From a virus (lineage: Duplodnaviria > Caudoviricetes), in IMG/VR virus record IMGVR_UViG_3300020156_000029, positions 208 to 64,207 of that record: a stretch of DNA of 64,000 bases. One strand, given 5' to 3'. Positions 29,512 to 38,192 of the stretch are shown one piece after another. A model generated the notes under the pieces. The model was not told where the DNA came from, ran no database searches, and saw only the letters and a list, made by a program, of their open reading frames with translations. Made by a program: the position numbers and the translations under genes. How positions within the stretch are numbered: the first letter of the stretch is position 1; each line of letters starts with the position of its first letter.

Positions 29512-30723
29512 TTGAGCACCATCGACGAGAAGCTGAAGGACTACGCGACGCCGCGTCAGTCCGAGATCATCGACGCCCTTAACGCGGCGGCCGGCAACGA
29601 GAGCGCGGCGGCCCGCGCCCTGAGCGTGGCCCGCCAGACGGTGCAGAGCGCCGTGCGAGAGGTGAAGAAGAAGGCGGCACGGGCTGGCTATGCCCCCGGC
29701 CACTTCAAGGACGGCGTCGCCCCCGGTTACCTGATGGGGAAGGTGACGGTCCACCGCGACGCGGCTGGCCAGGTCGTCCAGACCTGGGAGCGCCAGTCGC
29801 CGGAGGAGGCCGATCGTCTCGCCGCCGTCCTCGAGGCGGTTCGCGAAGCGGCCGAAGACCTCCCCCGCCTCGCACCGCTGGCCGCGCCGGCGAGCACGCT
29901 GAAGCACCTCCTGAACCTCTACGTCTTCACGGACTACCACCTCGGCATGAGGGCCTGGGCGGAGGAGGGCGGCGCGGACTGGAACCTCGAGATCGCCGAG
30001 CGGATGGTCGTCGAAGCGTTCGAGCACATGATCGCCTCGGCCCCGGCCGCTCGGGTCGGCTTCATCGGCCAGCTTGGCGACTTCCTGCACTTCGATTCGC
30101 TCCTGGCGGTGACGCCGACGAGCCGGCACGTCCTTGACGCCTCGTCGCACTACAAGGAGGTCGTCCGCGCCGCCATCCGCATCATGCGGCGGCTGATCGA
30201 CTTTGCGCTCCACCGGCACGAGGAGGTCGTCGTCCTGGCGGCCGAGGGGAATCACGACCTGATCGGCGGCGGTGTCTGGCTCCCCGAGCTTGTCCGCGCG
30301 CTCTACGAGAACGAGCCCCGCGTCACGATCGTCGACAGCGCCACGCCCTACTACGCCTATGAGTGGGGCTCGACGATGCTGGCCTTCCATCACGGCCACA
30401 TGAAGAAGCTCGAGACCCTCCCGCTCGTCTTCGCCGAGCGCTACGCCGAGATGTGGGGCCGCACCAAGAAGCGCTACGCCCACGCCGGCCACTACCACCA
30501 CGAGGTCGAGAAGAAGGACGTCGGAGGGATGCGGGTCACCCAGCACCCGACCCTGGCCCCGAACGACAGCCACTCGGCGCGCGGCGGCTATGCGGCGAAT
30601 CAACAGACCTCGGTCATCACCTATCACGAGCGCTTCGGGAAGGTGGCTGAGAACGTGGTGACGCCCGAGATGCTGACGGGCTTCGACGAGCCGGTGGGCG
30701 CGGGACGGCTGGGGCTGCGGTGA
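29512..30723 (+). CDS. HTH-fused calcineurin-like metallophosphoesterase
   Basis: N-terminal HTH 'GNESAAARALSVARQTV'; motifs DYH, GDFLH, GNHD, HHGH, GHYH. Confidence 0.8.
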   Translation: MSTIDEKLKDYATPRQSEIIDALNAAAGNESAAARALSVARQTVQSAVREVKKKAARAGYAPGHFKDGVAPGYLMGKVTVHRDAAGQVVQTWERQSPEEADRLAAVLEAVREAAEDLPRLAPLAAPASTLKHLLNLYVFTDYHLGMRAWAEEGGADWNLEIAERMVVEAFEHMIASAPAARVGFIGQLGDFLHFDSLLAVTPTSRHVLDASSHYKEVVRAAIRIMRRLIDFALHRHEEVVVLAAEGNHDLIGGGVWLPELVRALYENEPRVTIVDSATPYYAYEWGSTMLAFHHGHMKKLETLPLVFAERYAEMWGRTKKRYAHAGHYHHEVEKKDVGGMRVTQHPTLAPNDSHSARGGYAANQQTSVITYHERFGKVAENVVTPEMLTGFDEPVGAGRLGLR

Positions 30724-31046
30724 TGATCAAGCTGGCCATCTCCTTCGCCCTGGCCGTCGCAACGGCCGCTCCCGTGACCCAATACGTCTCGCTCCCGCCG
30801 TCCGAGTTTCAGGGCGGCGCTCCCATCGCAGTCAGGCTGATCACCGGCCCGCGCGCCGACATCGACCCCGCGTGCAAGTTCCTGGGCGGCCAGGTCGGGC
30901 CGGGCATGGTCATCGCGGCCTGTTACAAGAACGGCGTCATCGTCGCGCCCGATCCGTGCGACCCGTTCTTCGCCGGCGAGAAGTTCGCGGACCTGATGTG
31001 CCACGAGATCGGGCACGCGCGGGGTTGGAGCCACGAGGTCGAGTAG
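30720..31046 (+). CDS. Small exported protein with HExxH motif
   Basis: Signal peptide, four Cys, 'CHEIGHARGWSH'. Confidence 0.6.
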   Translation: MMIKLAISFALAVATAAPVTQYVSLPPSEFQGGAPIAVRLITGPRADIDPACKFLGGQVGPGMVIAACYKNGVIVAPDPCDPFFAGEKFADLMCHEIGHARGWSHEVE

Positions 31047-31189
31047 CGACCCAACCCGCCCCGCGCTTCGGGCGGGCCGCGCTATCGTTCTCTCGTCACC
31101 CCGGCCACGCGGACAGCCCTCGACCTCTCCTGCGATTGTGGCTCTCGTCCCGCTGAATGTCGGGGTGACACCCCCCAAGAAAATAGTCC

Positions 31190-31217
31190 TTGACGCGGGA
31201 ATGTGACCCGTTATGGT
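31190..31217 (+). promoter_or_regulatory. Sigma70-type promoter for tmRNA
   Basis: TTGACG-N16-TATGGT just upstream of the tmRNA acceptor piece. Confidence 0.65.
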
Positions 31218-31223
31218 GTTGCT

Positions 31224-31490
31224 TGTTCGGGTCTGGACACGGGTGCGAATCCCGTCACCTCCACCACGAACGCACAGACGGGGGATCGCTCCCCGTCGCC
31301 AGAGAGCGAAGCTGGCGGCATCTGAACCGGACTGTGCGTTCTTGATGGGGGTGATTAGTTTCGACAGGCCCAGGGCGCGGTAGCCAATCCGCACACATTG
31401 AACTGTGAACGACAACTACGACCTGTCTCAGGCCATCGCGGCCTAAGCGGAGCCCGCCGAGGGCTTGGCAACAGAACCTCGGCACCTCAT
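31224..31490 (+). ncRNA. ssrA: Circularly permuted (two-piece) tmRNA
   Basis: Acceptor piece with T arm ACGGG-TGCGAAT-CCCGT and CACCTCC-ACCA (ends 31266) precedes the 5' piece GGGGGTGA (31347); the stem gives the G3-U70 Ala determinant; tag ORF 31405-31446 VNDNYDLSQAIAA*; outer ends approximate. Confidence 0.92.
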
Positions 31491-31499
31491 TCGGGCCTC

Positions 31500-32005
31500 G
31501 GCCCGCATCGCGCAGACCCCGCGTCGTAGGGTCGACGGCCGAGAGAGAACGGCAAGCGCCGAGGGTCTACTCCCCCTCGATTGACGGGCTCGCAGGCCCC
31601 GGAGAGCGCGATGTCTGCGGATTATTCGCCCGAGAGGGCGTCCGATGAGTGGAGAGCGACCACTCCTTCCCGAGCCCAGGGAGTAGCACGCTCAGAGGGT
31701 GACCCGAGAGGGAGCGCCGGCTAGGAGCTTGCCGGTAGAGGGGTGGATTAGCTGGGATTCAAAACCCTGGCTTCGTCCACCCCTCGATCCAGTTGCCCCT
31801 TGGGCGAGGCCGCCAGCCGGAGGCGGGTTAGAAGTGGATGGACGTGGGGCCTTAGGGCCTTGGTGAGATGTCGTGAAAGGGCGGCGGTCGGTCCTGGGTT
31901 CGATTCCCAGTGCGGAGGCAACTCCGCGTAGCTCAGCCTGGTAGAGCAACCGCGACAGCCGCGCGACAAGGCCGGGCATCACCCGGCGGGCGTTACAGTA
32001 AGCGG
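31500..32005 (+). ncRNA. Large ornate structured RNA with permuted tRNA-like domain (GOLLD/YrlA-like)
   Basis: No credible ORF; many GNRA-capped hairpins; CTACTCCC(31567)/GGGAGTAG(31679) long-range pairing; T arm, capped acceptor stem, D arm order at 31884-31953; followed by a terminator; ends approximate. Confidence 0.75.
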
Positions 32006-32010
32006 CCCGC

Positions 32011-32045
32011 AAGGCCCCGGTCTTCGGATCGGGGCCTTCTCCTTA
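32011..32045 (+). terminator. Intrinsic terminator of the ncRNA cluster
   Basis: AAGGCCCCGGTC-TTCG-GATCGGGGCCTT followed by CTCCTTAT. Confidence 0.75.
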
Positions 32046-32104
32046 TATATGAGAGCCTCGCTTTAGACAGGCGCGGCGTCTGGCCATCGTGACACAATAG
32101 GCGC

Positions 32105-32367
32105 TCAAGCCGTCCGTCCCTCGCGATGATCCCAGGTCGCCGACAGGATCGCCCAACTAGGCCGTGGGGTGCGGGAGCTTTCAAACGTGGCGCTGCGGCG
32201 ATCGAGCGGCGACCCCATCCCGAGGGCGGAAAACCGGGCGCTGGCTCCCAGCGAAAGTCGACGGCCCATTTGGCGGCCATGCCGGCAACAAGCACGAGGG
32301 GCGGCCCGCACCTGGCGGGGAATGCTTCGGCCACGGCCCGACACGGGAGTCGCCCCTCGACCTTCTT
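32105..32367 (+). ncRNA. Unidentified structured RNA candidate
   Basis: Nested helices and loop-loop complementarities (see findings); no credible ORF; strand inferred from G-U pairs. Confidence 0.45.
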
Positions 32368-32419
32368 GGCCCAACCGAACCACCGGATTAATCCAGAACG
32401 TCAGCCTAGCGCGCGGACC

Positions 32420-32635
32420 CGTTCTGTTTTACAGTGCTCTATCGGCTCCTAGTGCGGGCAGGAGCCGGGTTTTACACCTAAGTCGTTGAGAAACCACGTA
32501 TGTTATCAGCTTCCCAAGCTGAATGTCGTGGGTTCGATTCCCATCGCCCGCTCCAAAATCCCTAGACATTAGAACGACATAGCTCGGTGGTCATTTCGGC
32601 CAACGCCCGAGTTTTACACCGATTTTACAGGTCTA
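32420..32635. mobile_element. attP: core identical in form to the 3' part of tRNA-Gly(CCC), with arm-type repeats
   Basis: 32506-32555 TCAGC-TTCCCAA-GCTGA-ATGTC-GTGGG-TTCGATT-CCCAT-CGCCCGC-TCCA lacks a 5' half; TTTTACA direct repeats at 32427, 32470, 32612, 32623. Confidence 0.88.
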
Positions 32636-32727
32636 TGATTTGTTCTGTTCGCGGTTCGATCTCCGTTGACGACGGAATAAAACGGTGTATGCAATGACAC
32701 ATCGTTTCATTCCCAACGGATTTTCAG

Positions 32728-34454
32728 ATGACCGAGAGACTTCAGTCCGGCGACGCCCGAGTCGGGGACGTCGTCACGCCACTTAGCTCAATCTCGCAGC
32801 ATGAAGCGGAGCCCCGATTCAGGGCCGGCGAGCGGCTCACGGTGACAGCCGCGTCCGCACGTTCCGCACTCCTGACGGTGATGGACGATGGCGGAAAGAG
32901 CGGAACTTGGTCCTGCTCATGCTTTCGGTTCGTCGAGCCGAGGTCGGCCGAGCAGCTTCTCCACCGCGCACTCGGAGATGTCATTGAGGCGCTCGCGCCC
33001 CTGACGGTGGTGGGCCGCCCCGTCGTCTCGCTGGATACGGCGCTGACCTCGGCAGTCGCAAAAGCCAACACCCTCCTCGAACAAGGGCCGGGCAGCGAGG
33101 TCGCGGATTTGCGCGCGGCGCTGCAAGCTGAATGGGCCTGGCACGAACTGCGCTGGGATTTGGCTCTCGACGAAGCCCGTGAATGCTCTCATCGCGAGGA
33201 GAAGGGCGCGGCGGCCTCGGCGGCGCGGTCGGCGAACAAGCACCGGGAGCGCATGGACGCGATCGAGGCCGTGTTGCCGCGCCAGGCTCGGCAGGCGGAG
33301 GCGGCGTGATGCTGGTCGAGGAACTCCGCAAGGCGCTCGCCAAAATGCCCGGCGAGATGAACGTCTATCTCACCGGCGGCAACGGCATCGCCTCCGCCAA
33401 GCACCTGTTCAAACTCAACCTCGTCGGCGTTGAACAGTCGTGCGAACTTCGGACCTATTTCGAGGACCACACGCCCGACATGCAGGACTCGTTGATCGAG
33501 AGGCACACTGGATTCAACACCCGCGAGGAGTTGATCGACGCCTACAAGAAGCTTGTCGAGGCGCAGACGAAATCGGCAGAGCCCGCCCGATGACCGACCG
33601 CTACCTCCTGATGAAGCGCGGCCTCTACTATCGGCCCGACGCCATGGGCTACACCGGAATCAGGGACAACGCCGGCCGCTATCCGAAGGCCGAGGCGGAG
33701 ACCCACGTCCACCCCGAGTCGGGCGTGACGATGATCCCCGAGGGCCGCGCGGACGAGTTTTCGCCGGCGTGCTGCGACGACCTGGCGCGCGATCACCTGA
33801 AGAAACAACGGGACGACTTGCGGGCGGCGCTGGACCTGGCGCTGATCCGCCTCGGCGCGCTCGAGCCGGGTGACAGCCGGGCGGTCAGCGACGAGTTCGT
33901 CGCCATGGCCGCCGCTGGCACGCCGCACCACAACGACGAGGGGCGCGAGATCATCCGGCGCGCGATCGAGAGGGAGTCCGCCCGATGAGAGCCGTCCTCA
34001 CCAACGCGATCGAGAAGGAGGACGGCCCGTCCCCCGCCGACATCCGGCTCCGCGATGAGTTCGCCATGGCGGCGCTGACCGGGTTTCTCGCCAACCCGAA
34101 TCTGACAAGTGCTGGCGACCTTCAATCGGCGGAGTCCGCCTATATCTGGGCCGACGCCATGATGAAGGCGCGGGAGCCCGATCCACTCGGCCGCGACGCC
34201 AGCGGTGTCACGCCTGGGATGCGCGACTACCTGGCCAAGGGGCGGGAGGGGGTGCGGTCGTGAGTAACCGCCGCAAGGCCGAGCGTCGAGTCGAGATCGC
34301 GCGACTGCGCGAGGAGGGTGCCGAGGCGGCACGCGCTGGCCGGCACGTTCAAACCTGTCCCCAGCGTTACATGCGGACGGAAAACCGGGCGCATTGGGAG
34401 CGAGGATATTGGGAAGCGGTTGAGCGAGAGGGGCTCCCGCACTTCCCCACCTAA
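32728..34454 (+). CDS. Operon of five small hypothetical genes (32728-33309, 33309-33593, 33590-33988, 33985-34263, 34260-34454)
   Basis: Consecutive start/stop overlaps downstream of a TTGAC promoter at 32666; 'LRDEFAMAALTG' is a common phage motif. Confidence 0.65.
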
Positions 34455-35491
34455 CCCGCCGCCGCCCGCCCCAGCTTCTCGATCTTCGCGCGGAGACGCT
34501 TGGCCCGGTTGACGTAGCGGTCGATGATCCCCTCGACCTTCTCCTTCTTCCACCCGAGCATCTCCGCGATGTCCTCGGTGGTGAGGCCGGCCAGATAGAA
34601 CTTGGTGGCGGCGGTGCCGCGCGCGTCGTGGAAATGGAGCGTCCAGCCCGCCTCCTCGAGGCCGACCCCCTCCGGTACGTCGTCGCCGAGCGCCGCCCAG
34701 CACGCCTTATTCCACGATGAGCCGAACCCGCCGGCCCAGGGCGTCCCGTCCGTCGACGTCAGGACGTGGGTCGAGCGCTTGGGGATTTCGGCCAGGAGCG
34801 CGCGAAGCTCGTCGTAGAGCGGCACGACGTATTCCAGCTTGCCGCGCGACTTGCCGGTCGGCATGACGATGGCCAGGTCGCCGATGTGGCCCCATTGCAG
34901 CTTGAGGAGGTCGCCTTGCCGGAGGCCAGTCAGGCACGCCAGCCGGAGCGCCCACATGATCTCGGGGCTAGCCGTCTTAGCGAACGACGTCAGGTCTTCG
35001 GGCGTCCAGATGTGGTCGGCCCGGTCAGCGCTGTAGAGGTTCGCGATCCCGAAGCACGGGTTCGACTTGAGGCGGCCCTCCTCGACGGCGTAGGACAGCA
35101 CGGCGGAGAGCACCTGTTTCCCCATGTCGGCCGCGCGCGGGTTGTCCTTCCACTTCGAGCGCCACTTCTTGATGACCTGGCGCACCTCGGGCTTGTCGAA
35201 GGTCTTCACCGACAGCTTGCCGAGGCCCTCGTTGACCCGGTCGAGCCACGGACCCCAGTTCTTTTTCGTGCTGGCGGCCAGGCCCGCGTAGGCGTCGCTC
35301 TCCTTATAGTCGGCGATCAGGCCCGACAGCTTCGAGGCGTCGTCGGGGCCGGCCGTGAGCGCGTGCCAGGCGGCGACGAACTCCTTCGAGCCCGGCTGGC
35401 CGGGGAGGCGCGGGCCGCCGCGCCAGGCGTAATAGTATGTCCGCCCCTTAGCGTTTACGCGGTGAAGGCCCTTGAGGTCGATCGTCGCCAT
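34451..35491 (-). CDS. int: Tyrosine integrase
   Basis: 'LTGLRQGDL', 'FHDARGT' (HxxR), 'LGW', catalytic 'RY'; N-terminal 'YYYAWRGGPRL' typical of alphaproteobacterial phage integrases. Confidence 0.93.
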   Translation of the reverse strand: MATIDLKGLHRVNAKGRTYYYAWRGGPRLPGQPGSKEFVAAWHALTAGPDDASKLSGLIADYKESDAYAGLAASTKKNWGPWLDRVNEGLGKLSVKTFDKPEVRQVIKKWRSKWKDNPRAADMGKQVLSAVLSYAVEEGRLKSNPCFGIANLYSADRADHIWTPEDLTSFAKTASPEIMWALRLACLTGLRQGDLLKLQWGHIGDLAIVMPTGKSRGKLEYVVPLYDELRALLAEIPKRSTHVLTSTDGTPWAGGFGSSWNKACWAALGDDVPEGVGLEEAGWTLHFHDARGTAATKFYLAGLTTEDIAEMLGWKKEKVEGIIDRYVNRAKRLRAKIEKLGRAAAG

Positions 35492-35672
35492 TCTCGGTCA
35501 TCCAGTTCGCGATCTCGTCGGCGGGCTCCGGTTCGGCCGTCTCCCCGCCTTCATATAAGGAAATAAGCCCGGTATGGCGGTTGACGTCAATGCGACGGAC
35601 GGTGAAGCCGGCGGCCTTCGCCCCGGCGACCGCCTTGGCCACGTCCTTCTCGGTGAAGGCGGGTGCGCTCAT
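35448..35672 (-). CDS. Small protein upstream of integrase (excisionase position)
   Basis: 'MSAPAFTEKDVAKAVAGAKAAG' overlaps the int start. Confidence 0.55.
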   Translation of the reverse strand: MSAPAFTEKDVAKAVAGAKAAGFTVRRIDVNRHTGLISLYEGGETAEPEPADEIANWMTENGDDRPQGPSPRKR

Positions 35673-36049
35673 TCTGGAAACACCTTCCTGACTTCGACGC
35701 CGGCGGCTCGGGCCTTCGCGACCATATCGGCCGTCCCGCGCCCGCCGGGGAAGGCCACTACGATGTCGGGCCGCCCCTTCTTCAGCATCTCGGAGTTGCG
35801 GATCGGCCCGGCGCGCCGGCCGTGCTTCGCCCAATCGGCGCGGTATTCCTCGAACTTCGTCCAGTTCACGACCGCCCACTGATCGGCCAGGCTGTCCGCG
35901 CCAGGCGCGCCGCCGTGGATGATCACGGTGCCTCGGCGCGGGAGCATGTCGCCCTCGTCGATCGTCATGGCGTCGAGGGTCTTGGCCAGGAGCCGGTAGT
36001 CGGCAAAATCCCGGCCGCCGCAAACGAGGATGCGAAGGGGGCGGGTCAT
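35669..36049 (-). CDS. SLOG-superfamily protein (DUF2493/YspA-like)
   Basis: 'ILVCGGRDF', 'IIHGGAPGAD', 'AGPIRN', 'AFPGGRGTADM'. Confidence 0.88.
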   Translation of the reverse strand: MTRPLRILVCGGRDFADYRLLAKTLDAMTIDEGDMLPRRGTVIIHGGAPGADSLADQWAVVNWTKFEEYRADWAKHGRRAGPIRNSEMLKKGRPDIVVAFPGGRGTADMVAKARAAGVEVRKVFPE

Positions 36050-36533
36050 CCCGCCAACCTCCGGCCCGCCTCGGTGAGCGAGAACTGAACGAACCCGCCG
36101 CCGAAGTTGATCTTCGAGGCCAGGCCGCGCTTCACGAGGTCGACGAAGATCAGGGCGGCGCATATCGCCTCCTCGGTCTCGAGCGGGTTGGGGAGCGTGT
36201 GCGGCCCCTCATCTCTGAGGAACCGCACGGCCATGAGGTCGGCTTCGGCGCGGGTGATGCTCATTTGCGCCCATACCCCATGTCCTTGAGCATCTCCGCG
36301 ACCATGTTCCAGACATGGAGGTCGAGGCGAGGCCAGTTCTCCAACCGGCCGGTCTTTGATACCCGGCCCTTGTCCAGAGCCGCCGAGTCACGGCCAACGA
36401 AGGTCTGGCCGTCGTAGGTTCCGCGCCGCCAGTTCTCGACGCTGGCTTGACCGTCGTTGCAAATGTGCATCCGCGCCAACTCCGTCTTAGAGCCGTTGAC
36501 AGCGGACCAAAGCTCAACCCGAACGACGATCAC
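36046..36533 (-). CDS. Two small hypothetical proteins (36046-36264, 36261-36533)
   Basis: Coupled by 4-nt overlaps within the leftward operon. Confidence 0.6.
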
Positions 36534-36964
36534 GCCGCCGCCCTCACGTCCGTCAGCATCACAGGCTTCGCGATGCCGGTGTCGTCCAGCGCGATCGGGA
36601 TGATGACGCGGAGGTTCGGGATCAGCGCCGCGTCGACCATGGCCTCGGCGGTGGTCGTGACGACGATCTCCTCGTCTTCGACCGTGCGGACGGCCCCGAT
36701 CACGTCATCGAAGGCGGCGAAGAAGTGAACCTCGAAGTCGGGGCCGGAGAGGATGGCGACAGGTCGCCAGGCCTCGCCGGGGAGGACGACGCCCGTCTCC
36801 TCCCCGAACTCGCGGACCATCGCGGCAAGCGCGGTCTCCCCTGGCTCGATCTTCCCGCCGATGGCGTTCAGCTTGCCCGCCTGCCAGGCGGGGCGGTTTT
36901 TGCGGACGAGGGCGACGCGGTCGGCGTCGGCGTCGAACAGAAGGCCGGCGACGTAGCGCATCAT
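36530..36964 (-). CDS. NUDIX hydrolase
   Basis: Nudix box 'GGKIEPGETALAAMVREFGEETGV'. Confidence 0.9.
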   Translation of the reverse strand: MMRYVAGLLFDADADRVALVRKNRPAWQAGKLNAIGGKIEPGETALAAMVREFGEETGVVLPGEAWRPVAILSGPDFEVHFFAAFDDVIGAVRTVEDEEIVVTTTAEAMVDAALIPNLRVIIPIALDDTGIAKPVMLTDVRAAA

Positions 36965-37998
36965 TGGGCGACCCCCGACTTCAAGGCCTCGACATCGCCG
37001 CGTGTGAGCCCGGTCTTCTCCTCGATCAAAGCGAACACCCCCGCCTCCATCTCGGCGGCCGTTTCCGCTTCGGCGACGATGGCGGGGATCGTCTCGGCGT
37101 TGCGGGTGCTGTCGAAAGCCCAGGGCGTCGGAAAGATGATCGAGTGCCGGTCGAACCAACCCTTCAGGACGGCGTCGAGCTTGGCCTCGACCTCTTTCGT
37201 GTCCGTGGTGATTTCGCAGTAGTCTTCGCCGAACGCGCCGTTGTCGTCCGCGCGCTCGCACATCTGTTCGATGATGTCGCCGGCGGACGGAAGATATTGC
37301 TCCATCGAGCCCTTGGCCGCCTCGATGATATAGAAGGCATCCTCGCCGTAGTTCTCGCGGCCGGCCTCGATGATCGCCTCGCGGCTGTCTTCCGGCCCCA
37401 CGGGATAACTCTCACCGTCCCCGCCGGCGTACCATTGCCAGACGGGCTCGGGCTTCTTGTAGCAATCCGGCCGCGTCGCCAGCCCCAGCTTCACATAGGC
37501 GTCGTGAACGGCGATGGCCTGGTTCTTGGAGTCGACGAGCGCGTCGTGATGCACGCCGGCGTCGCGGTTCGGGGCCACGCCGGCCAGGTCGTAGATTGTG
37601 CGGCACGAGCGCGGCGCGCGGTGCGACCACGGATGTTTCAGGCCGACAGCGGCGAAGGCGGCGACGAGATGAGTCTCGTCGAAGTTCGGATCGTTCGCCC
37701 AGAAGAACTCGCCGCCCTGGGTCGTCCACCACAAGGTGAACTCGCCGAGCGCCTGGACAAGCGACACCTGATCGGTCTCGAGGCGGGCGCGCGCCTCCGG
37801 CGACTGATCCGCCCACCACGCCTCGGTTTCCGGGTTCACCGTCAGGCCGGCGGCCTCGCACGACTCCCGCGTGATGTTGCGGTAGAAGGTCTCGCCCAGC
37901 GCGCCGGAGATTGGGTCGAAGACGACCGCGCCGATGGAGCGGATGACGGACCCTGGCGTCAGCCCCAGGGTCTCGAGGTCGGTCATGATGTGGCTCAT
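36961..37998 (-). CDS. DEDD 3'-5' exo(ribo)nuclease with acidic C-terminal domain
   Basis: 'MTDLETLG', 'SIGAV.F', 'NFDE', 'HDALVDS..QA'. Confidence 0.85.
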   Translation of the reverse strand: MSHIMTDLETLGLTPGSVIRSIGAVVFDPISGALGETFYRNITRESCEAAGLTVNPETEAWWADQSPEARARLETDQVSLVQALGEFTLWWTTQGGEFFWANDPNFDETHLVAAFAAVGLKHPWSHRAPRSCRTIYDLAGVAPNRDAGVHHDALVDSKNQAIAVHDAYVKLGLATRPDCYKKPEPVWQWYAGGDGESYPVGPEDSREAIIEAGRENYGEDAFYIIEAAKGSMEQYLPSAGDIIEQMCERADDNGAFGEDYCEITTDTKEVEAKLDAVLKGWFDRHSIIFPTPWAFDSTRNAETIPAIVAEAETAAEMEAGVFALIEEKTGLTRGDVEALKSGVAQ

Positions 37999-38192
37999 TC
38001 GGCCAGTTCCTTCAGTCGTTGTTTGGTGAGATGCCAGCCCTTGCAAAACTGGCAGTCGTATGCTCGGAGAAAGCCGGCCTCCTCGGCCCGTAGCTTGCGG
38101 ACCTGATTGGCGTGGCTCTCATCCCTGTAGCGTTTCTTGGAGCCGCACTGGCTGTAGACGGCGGCGCGTCGAGGCTGGCGGCGCGGTCTCAT
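37995..38192 (-). CDS. Small zinc-binding hypothetical protein
   Basis: 'CGSKKRY...RAYDCQFCKGWHLT'. Confidence 0.65.
   Translation of the reverse strand: MRPRRQPRRAAVYSQCGSKKRYRDESHANQVRKLRAEEAGFLRAYDCQFCKGWHLTKQRLKELAE

What the first reader, a model, noticed from the sequence alone, without database searches (positions are those of the whole stretch)
31500..32045. ~500-nt ornate non-coding RNA with a circularly permuted, tetraloop-sealed tRNA mimic
Seen: at 31884-31953 the tRNA elements occur in permuted order. These are GCGGT (3' anticodon-stem strand), CGGTC (variable loop), T arm CTGGG-TTCGATT-CCCAG, an acceptor stem TGCGGAG/CTCCGCG closed by a GCAA tetraloop (no CCA end, so it cannot be charged), TA, D arm GCTC-AGCCTGGTA-GAGC, and ACCGC. 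The 'anticodon' stem opens into the rest of a large RNA with many GNRA hairpins (GCCC-GAGA-GGGC, CCC-GAGA-GGG), a long helix GAGGGGTGGA/TCCACCCCTC and a pseudoknot-like pairing CTACTCCC(31567)/GGGAGTAG(31679), ending at a strong terminator. Known: this T-acceptor-D topology defines YrlA Y RNAs, and giant phage RNAs such as GOLLD lie beside tRNA genes. Inference: a GOLLD/YrlA-related or new RNA class. I see no Ro60/Rsr gene here, so it may be an RNA-only scaffold or a decoy for tRNA-elbow-binding host factors such as anticodon nucleases or ribosome quality control.
Basis: partly seen in the sequence, partly recalled or inferred. Interest (0 to 1): 0.92.

Follow-up and report, generated by a model that had tools for sequence, protein, structure and literature searches.

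The report
Phage tRNA mimic behind tmRNA gene
A temperate soil phage carries, just behind its own ribosome-rescue (tmRNA) gene, a tRNA look-alike with a sealed end of the known YrlA type, but it lacks the usual Ro60 partner and sits in about 500 bases of folded, non-coding sequence with no relatives found.

Summary
The permuted, tetraloop-sealed tRNA mimic at 31884-31953 is real. All 30 modelled pairs are canonical. Rfam YrlA matches full length at 40.7 bits (E 3e-7). That is below Rfam's threshold, but 48 of 48 other viral records with sealed modules also score only 30-45 bits.

The finding missed the context. The window is a complete temperate siphophage of an alphaproteobacterium. The region lies directly behind a two-piece tmRNA gene (31225 to about 31547). 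I found one promoter-like site (31190-31217) and one plus-strand terminator (32012-32045), so a single transcript of about 820 nt is likely. attP (the tRNA-Gly 3' part) is at 32505-32555.

No GOLLD or ROOL match was found. The phage has no Ro60/TROVE gene, and TROVE occurred in only 5 of 401 sampled alphaproteobacterial genomes. The module's stem carries neither handle motif seen in other phage mimics.

The 267-nt domain at 31594-31860 is non-coding and folds unusually well (z -3.7). No homologue turned up anywhere, so there is no covariation evidence and no expression data.

Verdict: a new variant of the YrlA-type tRNA mimic, probably Ro-independent, inside a phage RNA island. The "500-nt ornate RNA" is plausible but unproven. 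Other agents of this scan noted sealed mimics many times on other DNA.

The parts
31190..31217 (+). Promoter-like site TTGACG-16-TATGGT, the only one found in 30900-32800
   Evidence: 1 found against 0.2 expected in shuffles. Contigs of other runs begin to match at 31224/31225, 7-8 nt behind it.
31225..31547 (+). Two-piece (permuted) tmRNA gene. This is context, and its 3' hairpins overlap the start of the finding.
   Evidence: RF04321 76.2 bits (31212-31446) and beta_tmRNA 58.8 bits (31176-31510). Contigs of other runs match 31225-31489 and 31490-31524, then run on unlike. The 3' limit of about 31547 is the end of a predicted hairpin complex and is an inference.
31594..31860 (+). Domain B: a predicted 267-nt multi-branched domain closed by AGGCCC/GGGCCU. 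It holds two GAGA hairpins and an 11+7-bp helix capped by a T-loop-like AUUCAAAAC loop.
   Evidence: Minimum-energy helices with mean pair probability mostly 0.75-1.0. z = -3.74 against 22 coding controls with mean -0.62 and sd 1.1, one of which reached -4.39. No codon periodicity. No homologue.
31869..31968 (+). YrlA-like module on its stem. The outer helix is UGUCGU/GCGACA. A GGC/GCC helix follows, then the tRNA-like core.
   Evidence: RF02553 40.7 bits, E 3e-7, model 1-114 at 31868-31972. The tRNA-like fold scores -40.9 kcal/mol against an MFE of -46.2, with all 30 pairs canonical.
31884..31953 (+). Permuted tRNA core, in this order: anticodon-stem 3' strand, 5-nt variable loop, T arm, 7-bp acceptor stem sealed by GCAA, D arm, anticodon-stem 5' strand.
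   Evidence: Direct reading and regex test (acceptor 7/7, anticodon stem 5/5). The 5' half is 100% identical over 23 nt to alphaproteobacterial tRNA-Pro genes and 93% over 30 nt to tRNA-Thr(UGU).
31971..32008 (+). Two short hairpins between the module and the terminator
   Evidence: Minimum-energy fold, pair probabilities 0.70-0.92
32012..32045 (+). Intrinsic terminator: 11-bp stem, UUCG loop, U-rich tail. It is the only plus-strand terminator site found in 30900-32800.
32505..32555 (+). attP core: the 3' 51 nt (anticodon arm to CCA) of tRNA-Gly(CCC). This is context.
   Evidence: 3 of 3 integrase relatives in bacterial genomes lie beside a tRNA-Gly(CCC) gene. Alignment.
31152..31165 (+). A 13-of-14 copy of part of the attP core (GCTGAATGTCG.GG) just upstream of the RNA island. 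This is context.
   Evidence: 0 of 300 shuffles of 31047-31224 reach 13/14.

Best explanation
The region is the 3' two-thirds of a phage RNA island next to attP.

A single sigma-70-type promoter (31190-31217) probably drives one precursor of about 820 nt. It holds, in order:
- a two-piece tmRNA (31225 to about 31547);
- an orphan 267-nt folded domain (31594-31860);
- a YrlA-type tRNA mimic on a stem (31869-31968);
- two hairpins and a terminator (to 32045).

The mimic is a complete tRNA body with a sealed 7-bp acceptor stem and no anticodon loop. It cannot decode and is unlikely to be charged.

Its most likely role is to present a tRNA-shaped surface (elbow, acceptor/T minihelix) to a host or phage protein that recognises tRNA, independently of Ro60. 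It would act either as a decoy or as a docking and processing handle for the RNA it is attached to.

Because the acceptor stem has 7 pairs, as in M. smegmatis YrlA, RNase P may cut in the GCAA loop. That would release the upstream RNA in the same way the neighbouring tmRNA precursor is split.

Shown: the anatomy, the family resemblance, the non-coding nature, the lack of Ro60 and the position next to attP.

Inferred: co-transcription, processing, and the binding partner.

My odds:
- the module is a functional RNA element: 0.85;
- co-transcribed with the tmRNA: 0.6;
- Ro-independent: 0.75;
- domain B is a functional part of the same mature RNA: 0.3.
For: Phage identity:
- Terminase, portal, capsid, tape measure, exonuclease, clamp, helicase and primase.
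- Integrase.
- Record is 100% complete by CheckV.

Module:
- RF02553 full-length match, E 3e-7.
- In viral contigs, 68 of 96 matches to a pattern that left the acceptor positions free are 7/7 complementary. By my arithmetic chance gives about 0.1% each.
- RF02553 gives 30.0-45.2 bits as the best match in 48 of 48 such records, and none passes the gathering score. So 40.7 bits is typical.

One unit:
- One promoter-like site and only one plus-strand terminator site, at 32012-32045.
- Contigs of other runs start matching at 31224/5.

Non-coding:
- Codon-phase GC range is 0.04-0.12 across 31200-32550. In 39 coding windows the mean is 0.37 and the minimum 0.13.
- 8 overlapping ORFs have no Pfam hit. 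One weak PHROG hit lies outside the finding.

Folding:
- z -3.74 for domain B and -4.13 for the tmRNA, against a control mean of -0.62.

Ro-independence:
- No TROVE or DUF2828 in the phage.
- The 476-aa orphan ORF shows no Ro-like signal.
- TROVE is in 5 of 401 sampled alphaproteobacterial genomes.
- GcrA places the host in that class (plus established knowledge that GcrA is alphaproteobacterial).
- 0 of 6 handle motifs are present.
- 4 of 18 near-complete viral records with sealed modules also lack TROVE.

Other:
- RNase P idea: passages of the Wang et al. 2018 preprint, doi 10.1101/312249.
- A second phage (G456) has a YrlA-like RNA 130 nt from a tmRNA on the same strand with no terminator-like site found between them.
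Against: - No homologue of 31548-31868 or of the module's own stem was found, so nothing here is supported by covariation.
- No RNA data exist for this phage.
- The promoter and terminator calls are consensus scans only. Alphaproteobacterial or phage-specific promoters would be missed, so a separate promoter for the mimic is not excluded.
- One of 22 coding control windows folded as well as domain B (z -4.39).
- The module region alone has z of only -1.19. The tRNA-like register is 5.3 kcal/mol above the predicted minimum.
- 26 relatives found through the neighbouring exonuclease gene have neither a tmRNA nor a YrlA match. 120 other viral loci with permuted tmRNA genes have no sealed module. 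The combination is therefore a singleton and could be a recent accident.
- The host is not identified, so a host Ro60 is not excluded.
Confidence: 0.5

Rival explanations
1. Only the last ~180 nt (about 31865-32045: stem, tRNA mimic, two hairpins, terminator) is a functional small RNA, with a promoter I could not see. 31548-31860 would then be a spacer or the unprocessed tail of the tmRNA precursor, with no function of its own.
For: - Other phage sealed mimics are compact genes of about 100-140 nt.
- Domain B has no homologue.
- One coding control folded equally well.
Against: - No promoter-like site between 31218 and 31868.
- Domain B's z of -3.74 is close to the tmRNA's -4.13, and its pairs have high probabilities.
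- GNRA hairpins are enriched.
Confidence: 0.25
2. The 500 nt are a giant 3' domain of the tmRNA coding piece. They would replace the usual pseudoknots, so the tRNA mimic would travel on the tmRNA itself.
For: - No terminator site between the tag stop (31446) and 32012.
- The 3' tail of a two-piece tmRNA's coding piece is free to be extended (established tmRNA topology).
- Phage Melnitz is reported to carry a glutamine riboswitch in the 3' domain of its two-piece ssrA (PMC9004378, passages).
Against: - Contigs of other runs that match the tmRNA at 94-99% stop matching at 31489 or 31524 and continue with unlike letters. The ancestral gene therefore ends there.
- The beta_tmRNA model ends at 31510.
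Confidence: 0.12
3. It is a classical Y RNA. The stem binds the host's Ro60/Rsr, and the tRNA-like part recruits an effector such as PNPase.
For: - Topology and RF02553 match.
- 32 of 48 viral records with sealed modules encode TROVE.
- The 5' strand GUCGUGAAAG loosely resembles GGCGUAGAAG-type handles (direct comparison with the output).
Against: - No TROVE in the phage.
- TROVE in 5 of 401 sampled alphaproteobacteria.
- The strict GNCGAAN0-1G motif and the TACTTC and TGTTCC motifs are absent.
- The stem is not formed by the RNA's ends unless the RNA is processed.
Confidence: 0.08
4. It is inert captured DNA: a relic of another element that sat in tandem at the same tRNA-Gly site and no longer makes a functional RNA.
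For: - The island is bracketed by a 13/14 copy of part of the att core (31152-65) and attP.
- The close relatives found lack it.
Against: - The tmRNA keeps G3-U70, A73, CCA and an open tag frame (direct reading).
- The mimic keeps every tRNA core pair and tertiary position.
- Promoter and terminator are intact.
Confidence: 0.05

Closest known systems
YrlA (Y RNA-like A; Rfam RF02553; Chen et al. 2014, PMC4201824; structure preprint doi 10.1101/312249)
   Same: A circularly permuted tRNA body (T arm, loop-closed acceptor stem, D arm) whose anticodon stem opens into a longer stem. The tRNA tertiary positions are kept. The Rfam match is full length, with a score in the range of other phage members.
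   Different: - No Ro60/Rsr gene nearby or anywhere in the phage.
- The GNCGAAN0-1G motif is absent.
- The stem is buried inside a transcription unit of about 820 nt, not formed by the RNA's two ends.
- It is below Rfam's gathering score.
Mycobacterium smegmatis YrlA
   Same: A seven-pair acceptor stem like a real tRNA. That RNA is reported to be cut by RNase P and to receive CCA (passages of doi 10.1101/312249, and of PMC4201824).
   Different: Cleavage is not tested here. M. smegmatis YrlA is encoded with Rsr.
Ro-less phage sealed mimics with a CAGCA ('ACAGCAA') clamp, seen here's loci and in earlier notes of this scan
   Same: A sealed tRNA mimic in a phage without TROVE. 11 of 14 modules from TROVE-negative records carry CAGCA upstream.
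   Different: The window's module has no CAGCA clamp and no short closing helix that would define its own ends.
Two-piece ssrA of phage Melnitz with a 3' glutamine riboswitch (PMC9004378)
   Same: A phage-borne permuted tmRNA gene followed on the same strand by another structured RNA element (passages).
   Different: There the element is a known riboswitch ahead of a protein gene. Here it is an orphan domain plus a tRNA mimic that ends at a terminator, with no downstream gene.
GOLLD / ROOL large phage RNAs
   Same: Large, structured, found in phage RNA gene clusters. In locus L057 a ROOL RNA (351 bits), tRNAs and a YrlA-like RNA lie together.
   Different: No match to either family at E up to 10. 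Domain B is only 267 nt.

Membership tests
YrlA (RF02553) | tRNA-like module in permuted order with a loop-closed acceptor stem | tested here: met
YrlA (RF02553) | Score at or above Rfam's gathering score (69 bits) | tested here: inconclusive
   40.7 bits. But 0 of 48 viral records with sealed modules pass either, including TROVE-encoding ones.
YrlA (RF02553) | Ro60-binding stem with the GNCGAAN0-1G motif (PMC4201824, sections read) | tested here: not met
   The motif is absent from the 70 nt upstream. The stem reads GUCGUGAAAG.
YrlA (RF02553) | Encoded near a Ro60/TROVE gene on the same strand | tested here: not met
   No TROVE match in the complete phage record
YrlA (RF02553) | Binds Ro60/Rsr | not testable with these tools
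   Host not identified. TROVE in 5 of 401 sampled alphaproteobacterial genomes.
GOLLD / ROOL / other Rfam large RNAs | Covariance-model match | tested here: not met
   No such match in 31000-32300 at E up to 10
Functional tRNA gene | Anticodon loop and free acceptor end | tested here: not met
   ARAGORN finds no tRNA in the window. The acceptor is sealed by GCAA and the anticodon stem opens into other RNA.
tmRNA (as a 3' domain of the coding piece) | Homology with the bacterial ssrA gene extends over the region | tested here: not met
   Contigs matching the tmRNA diverge at 31489 or 31524
CAGCA-clamp sealed mimics of phages | CAGCA upstream and a short closing helix | tested here: not met

The most novel reading that the evidence does not exclude
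The phage makes one RNA precursor that tRNA-processing enzymes cut into three products: a working tmRNA, a new ~270-nt ornate RNA, and a two-piece, CCA-tailed tRNA-shaped RNA. Together these would retune or shield the host's translation quality control, or blunt tRNA-directed defences, during lysogeny. That would be a Ro-independent use of the Y-RNA design and a new large phage RNA class.
Probability: 0.15. Interest if true: 0.8.

Novelty: new variant of a known kind. Interest (0 to 1): 0.5.

Why it matters
YrlA-type tRNA mimics are described as partners of Ro60, and what their tRNA-like part binds is still unknown. A complete phage that keeps a near-perfect tRNA body has no Ro60, and Ro60 is rare in its host class. 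This points to a Ro-independent job for the tRNA-shaped module.

The phage also wires the mimic to a tmRNA gene under one promoter. That links the mimic to ribosome rescue or tRNA processing, which gives a concrete place to look for the partner.

The island lies next to attP, at the prophage end where phages usually keep genes that act in the lysogen.

Tried and rejected
Searches for homologues of 31500-32045 all failed.
- blastn against 50,697 phage records gave no match.
- nhmmer against 137 loci and then 136 more found hits only inside the tRNA-like core or the tmRNA.
- Three viral-contig pattern scans aimed at domain B or at the module's stem gave 1, 0 and 4 stretches. All of those found are unrelated.
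- BLAST of 31225-32045 against 401 sampled alphaproteobacterial genomes matched 17 genomes, each with a match of at most 36 nt in tRNA or tmRNA arms.
- Two genomes holding integrase relatives gave nothing.

Synteny searches through the neighbouring exonuclease also failed.
- 36 viral and 16 metagenome loci were found, with best identity 73%.
- Of the 36 viral loci I searched the whole records of 26. None has a YrlA or permuted-tmRNA match.
- Among 5.8 billion proteins the nearest relative is 73% identical (only 8000 candidates were scored).
- The best cultured-phage terminase is 47% identical.

Sequencing runs:
- Only the probable source run holds the whole stretch.
- In the four runs laid, nothing lay on 31525-32450. 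This is no evidence of absence, and the small shares say nothing about habitat.
- There were no raw RNA reads, so there is no expression test.

My first idea was that the phage integrates into ssrA and that the tmRNA is attP. I rejected it because attP is a tRNA-Gly fragment at 32505-32555.

I also rejected a protein-coding reading of the region.

The apparent YrlA match beside the tmRNA in record G459 turned out to be two adjacent tRNAs.

My first pattern found 7 stretches. Six are adjacent tRNA genes.

I dropped 17 whose printed sequence looked the same as one I kept. 48 records were searched. L092 was not held.

The motif tally covers 42 modules that fitted a stricter regex, not all 68.

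I did not see the supplementary tables of Chen et al. 2014 (lists of phage YrlA RNAs), because supplements are closed. They may hold Ro-less or tmRNA-linked cases.

I searched for prior descriptions and found no paper describing a YrlA-like RNA joined to a tmRNA gene.

Full report
WHAT THE WINDOW IS

The window is almost all of a 64,207-base virus record that CheckV rates 100% complete.

It encodes a large terminase, portal, major head protein, tail fibre, tape measure, a DNA-repair exonuclease (29512-30723), a sliding clamp, a helicase and a primase. It also encodes a tyrosine integrase (34451-35491, minus strand) and a GcrA-family protein.

It is therefore a temperate siphophage. By the known distribution of GcrA, its host is an alphaproteobacterium.

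No close relative exists in the collections I searched. The best cultured-phage terminase is 47% identical. The best exonuclease relative among 5.8 billion proteins is 73% identical.

THE OBSERVATION

The permuted tRNA body at 31884-31953 is not chance.
- Rfam's YrlA model matches over its whole length (31868-31972, 40.7 bits, E 3e-7).
- All 30 pairs of the tRNA-like model are canonical.
- The nucleotides that build the tRNA elbow and core are in place (direct reading).
- ARAGORN calls no tRNA, as expected for a sealed, anticodon-less body.

The 5' half is 100% identical over 23 nt to alphaproteobacterial tRNA-Pro genes and 93% over 30 nt to tRNA-Thr(UGU). The body is thus of the host class's type.

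GNRA-capped hairpins are enriched: 3 against 0.44 expected, reached by 4 of 500 shuffles.

The 8-nt 'pseudoknot' pairing is not special. The region has 11 such complementary 8-mers against 4.9 expected.

THE CONTEXT THE FINDING LEFT OUT

A two-piece tmRNA gene lies immediately upstream. RF04321 scores 76.2 bits at 31212-31446, and the beta_tmRNA model spans 31176-31510.

Contigs from other public runs align to 31224/5-31489, and in pieces up to 31524, at about 94-99% identity. They continue with unlike letters at both ends. The ssrA-derived segment therefore starts 7-8 nt behind the only promoter-like site (31190-31217) and ends near 31500-31550.

Between there and 32012 no plus-strand terminator-like site was found. 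The only plus-strand terminator site in 30900-32800 is the 11-pair hairpin at 32012-32045.

The simplest reading is one transcription unit of about 820 nt: tmRNA, then the finding.

WHERE attP LIES

All 3 integrase relatives found in bacterial genomes (44-51% identity) sit beside a tRNA-Gly(CCC) gene. The window carries the 3' 51 nt of that tRNA at 32505-32555. The tmRNA is therefore cargo, not the attachment site.

The RNA island lies on the arm of attP that ends up at the far end of the prophage.

A 13-of-14 copy of part of the att core lies at 31152-31165, just upstream of the island. None of 300 shuffles reaches this. This hints that the island was acquired as a cassette at the att site.

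IS IT NON-CODING?

Codon-phase GC periodicity is 0.04-0.12 across 31200-32550. In 39 coding windows of the same phage the mean is 0.37 and the minimum 0.13. Eight ORFs overlapping the area have no Pfam match. The single weak PHROG match lies at 32105-32383.

IS THE MODULE A YrlA?

A pattern scan of viral contigs left the acceptor positions free. It gave 96 matches in 94 stretches, and 68 of them have a fully complementary 7-pair stem. The sealed mimic is thus a large phage family.

I searched 48 whole records of that family.
- RF02553 matched in 48 of 48, but never above its gathering score. The best match per record was 30.0-45.2 bits.
- The window's 40.7 bits is therefore ordinary for phage members.
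- TROVE (Ro60) was found in 32 of the 48, and in 14 of the 18 that are at least 90% complete.

The flanking 'handles' split with the protein.
- Of 28 modules from TROVE-positive records, 16 have TACTTC upstream and 8 have TGTTCC downstream.
- Of 14 modules from TROVE-negative records, 11 have CAGCA upstream.
- The window's module has none of the six motifs tested, including the published GNCGAAN0-1G.

The phage has no TROVE and no DUF2828. Its one orphan ORF of Ro-like size shows no such signal. None of the 28 ORFs I scanned against Pfam has a family linked to such RNAs. TROVE occurs in only 5 of 401 sampled alphaproteobacterial genomes.

So the module works like the tRNA-like part of a YrlA. 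But two defining features of the family were tested and not met: the Ro60 handle and the Ro60 neighbour.

THE REST OF THE '500-nt RNA'

The minimum-energy fold of 31447-32045 (z -3.75) falls into three parts:
- the tmRNA's 3' hairpins;
- a 267-nt domain closed by AGGCCC/GGGCCU (31594-31860);
- the module with two hairpins and the terminator.

Domain B contains the two GAGA hairpins and an 11+7-pair helix capped by a T-loop-like loop.

Domain B folds at z -3.74, close to the tmRNA's -4.13. The 22 coding controls average -0.62, though one reached -4.39. The stretch behind the terminator (32050-32500) shows no folding signal (z +0.15), which fits an attP arm.

No homologue of domain B was found by any route (see Tried and rejected). 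It matches no Rfam family at E up to 10. It is a plausible structured RNA, but it has no comparative or expression support.

HOW IT MOST LIKELY WORKS

The anatomy points to an RNA operon whose products are defined by tRNA-processing enzymes.

The tmRNA part keeps G3-U70, A73 and CCA, so RNase P must cut at 31343 to make the coding piece (established tmRNA biology). The mimic's 7-pair acceptor stem resembles M. smegmatis YrlA. That RNA is reported to be cut by RNase P and CCA-tailed, while most YrlA RNAs are thought to be poor substrates (passages).

With no anticodon and a C3-G70 pair, the mimic cannot decode and is unlikely to be charged. This is inference from known identity rules.

I therefore favour a Ro-independent tRNA-shaped decoy or docking and processing handle made together with the tmRNA.

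One other phage record (G456, no TROVE) also has a YrlA-like RNA 130 nt from an intron-bearing tmRNA on the same strand, with no terminator-like site found between them. Another locus joins ROOL, tRNAs and a YrlA-like RNA. Such mimics seem to belong to phage RNA-gene clusters.

NOVELTY

Sealed tRNA mimics of the YrlA type in phages are in print, but only beside Ro60 (Chen et al. 2014: abstract, sections 5 and 18, and other passages read).

Earlier notes of this scan report them many times on other DNA, some without Ro60.

New here are three things:
- a handle of neither known type;
- embedding in a long structured transcript;
- the physical link to a two-piece tmRNA next to attP.

My literature searches found no description of such a link. 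It is a singleton, so I rate it a new variant of a known kind with moderate interest.

Noticed in passing
window 31152-31165 and 32518-32531: A 13-of-14 direct repeat of part of the attP/tRNA-Gly core brackets the whole RNA island. The upstream copy looks like a decayed tRNA 3' fragment. The island may have been captured as a cassette at the att site.
   Followed up: partly
window 32505-32555: attP core: the 3' 51 nt of tRNA-Gly(CCC), from the anticodon arm to CCA. It has compensatory differences in the T stem relative to the tRNA-Gly genes next to the three integrase relatives.
   Followed up: yes
window 32050-32500: The stretch another note called a third pseudoknotted RNA is non-coding by codon periodicity but shows no folding signal (z +0.15). 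It is more simply the arm of attP. ORF 32105-32383 (minus strand) has one weak PHROG hit (E 0.002).
   Followed up: partly
window 31225: Similarity of the phage tmRNA to ssrA-like contigs of other runs (94-99%) begins 7-8 nt behind the -10 hexamer, at about the predicted transcription start. The promoter itself is unlike. The tag region (about 31349-31423) is more diverged than the tRNA-like parts.
   Followed up: partly
L296 (G456:C1:58900-60100) 276-387 and 519-1083: A 118-kb phage without TROVE has a YrlA-like RNA 130 nt upstream of a tmRNA gene that carries a group I intron. Both are on the same strand, with no terminator-like site between them.
   Followed up: partly
L057 39-667 and 3460-3564: A ROOL RNA (351 bits), several tRNA genes and a YrlA-like mimic lie in one cluster of a 113-kb phage that lacks TROVE.
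   Followed up: no
loci L044-L137: Phage sealed tRNA mimics fall into two handle types that track the partner gene. TACTTC/TGTTCC handles occur in TROVE-encoding records. CAGCA handles occur in 11 of 14 modules from records without TROVE.
   Followed up: partly
window 35669-38046 (minus strand): Next to the integrase lie genes for a SLOG/YspA-like protein, a NUDIX hydrolase and an Rv2179c-like 3'-5' exoribonuclease. This is an RNA or nucleotide-metabolism trio about 4 kb from the RNA island.
   Followed up: no
window 31750-31772: The hairpin on top of the long helix has a T-loop-like loop (AUUCAAAAC), but it lacks the usual G-C pair closing a 7-nt T loop.
   Followed up: no
Phage-borne two-piece tmRNA genes are therefore common in that collection.
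   Followed up: no
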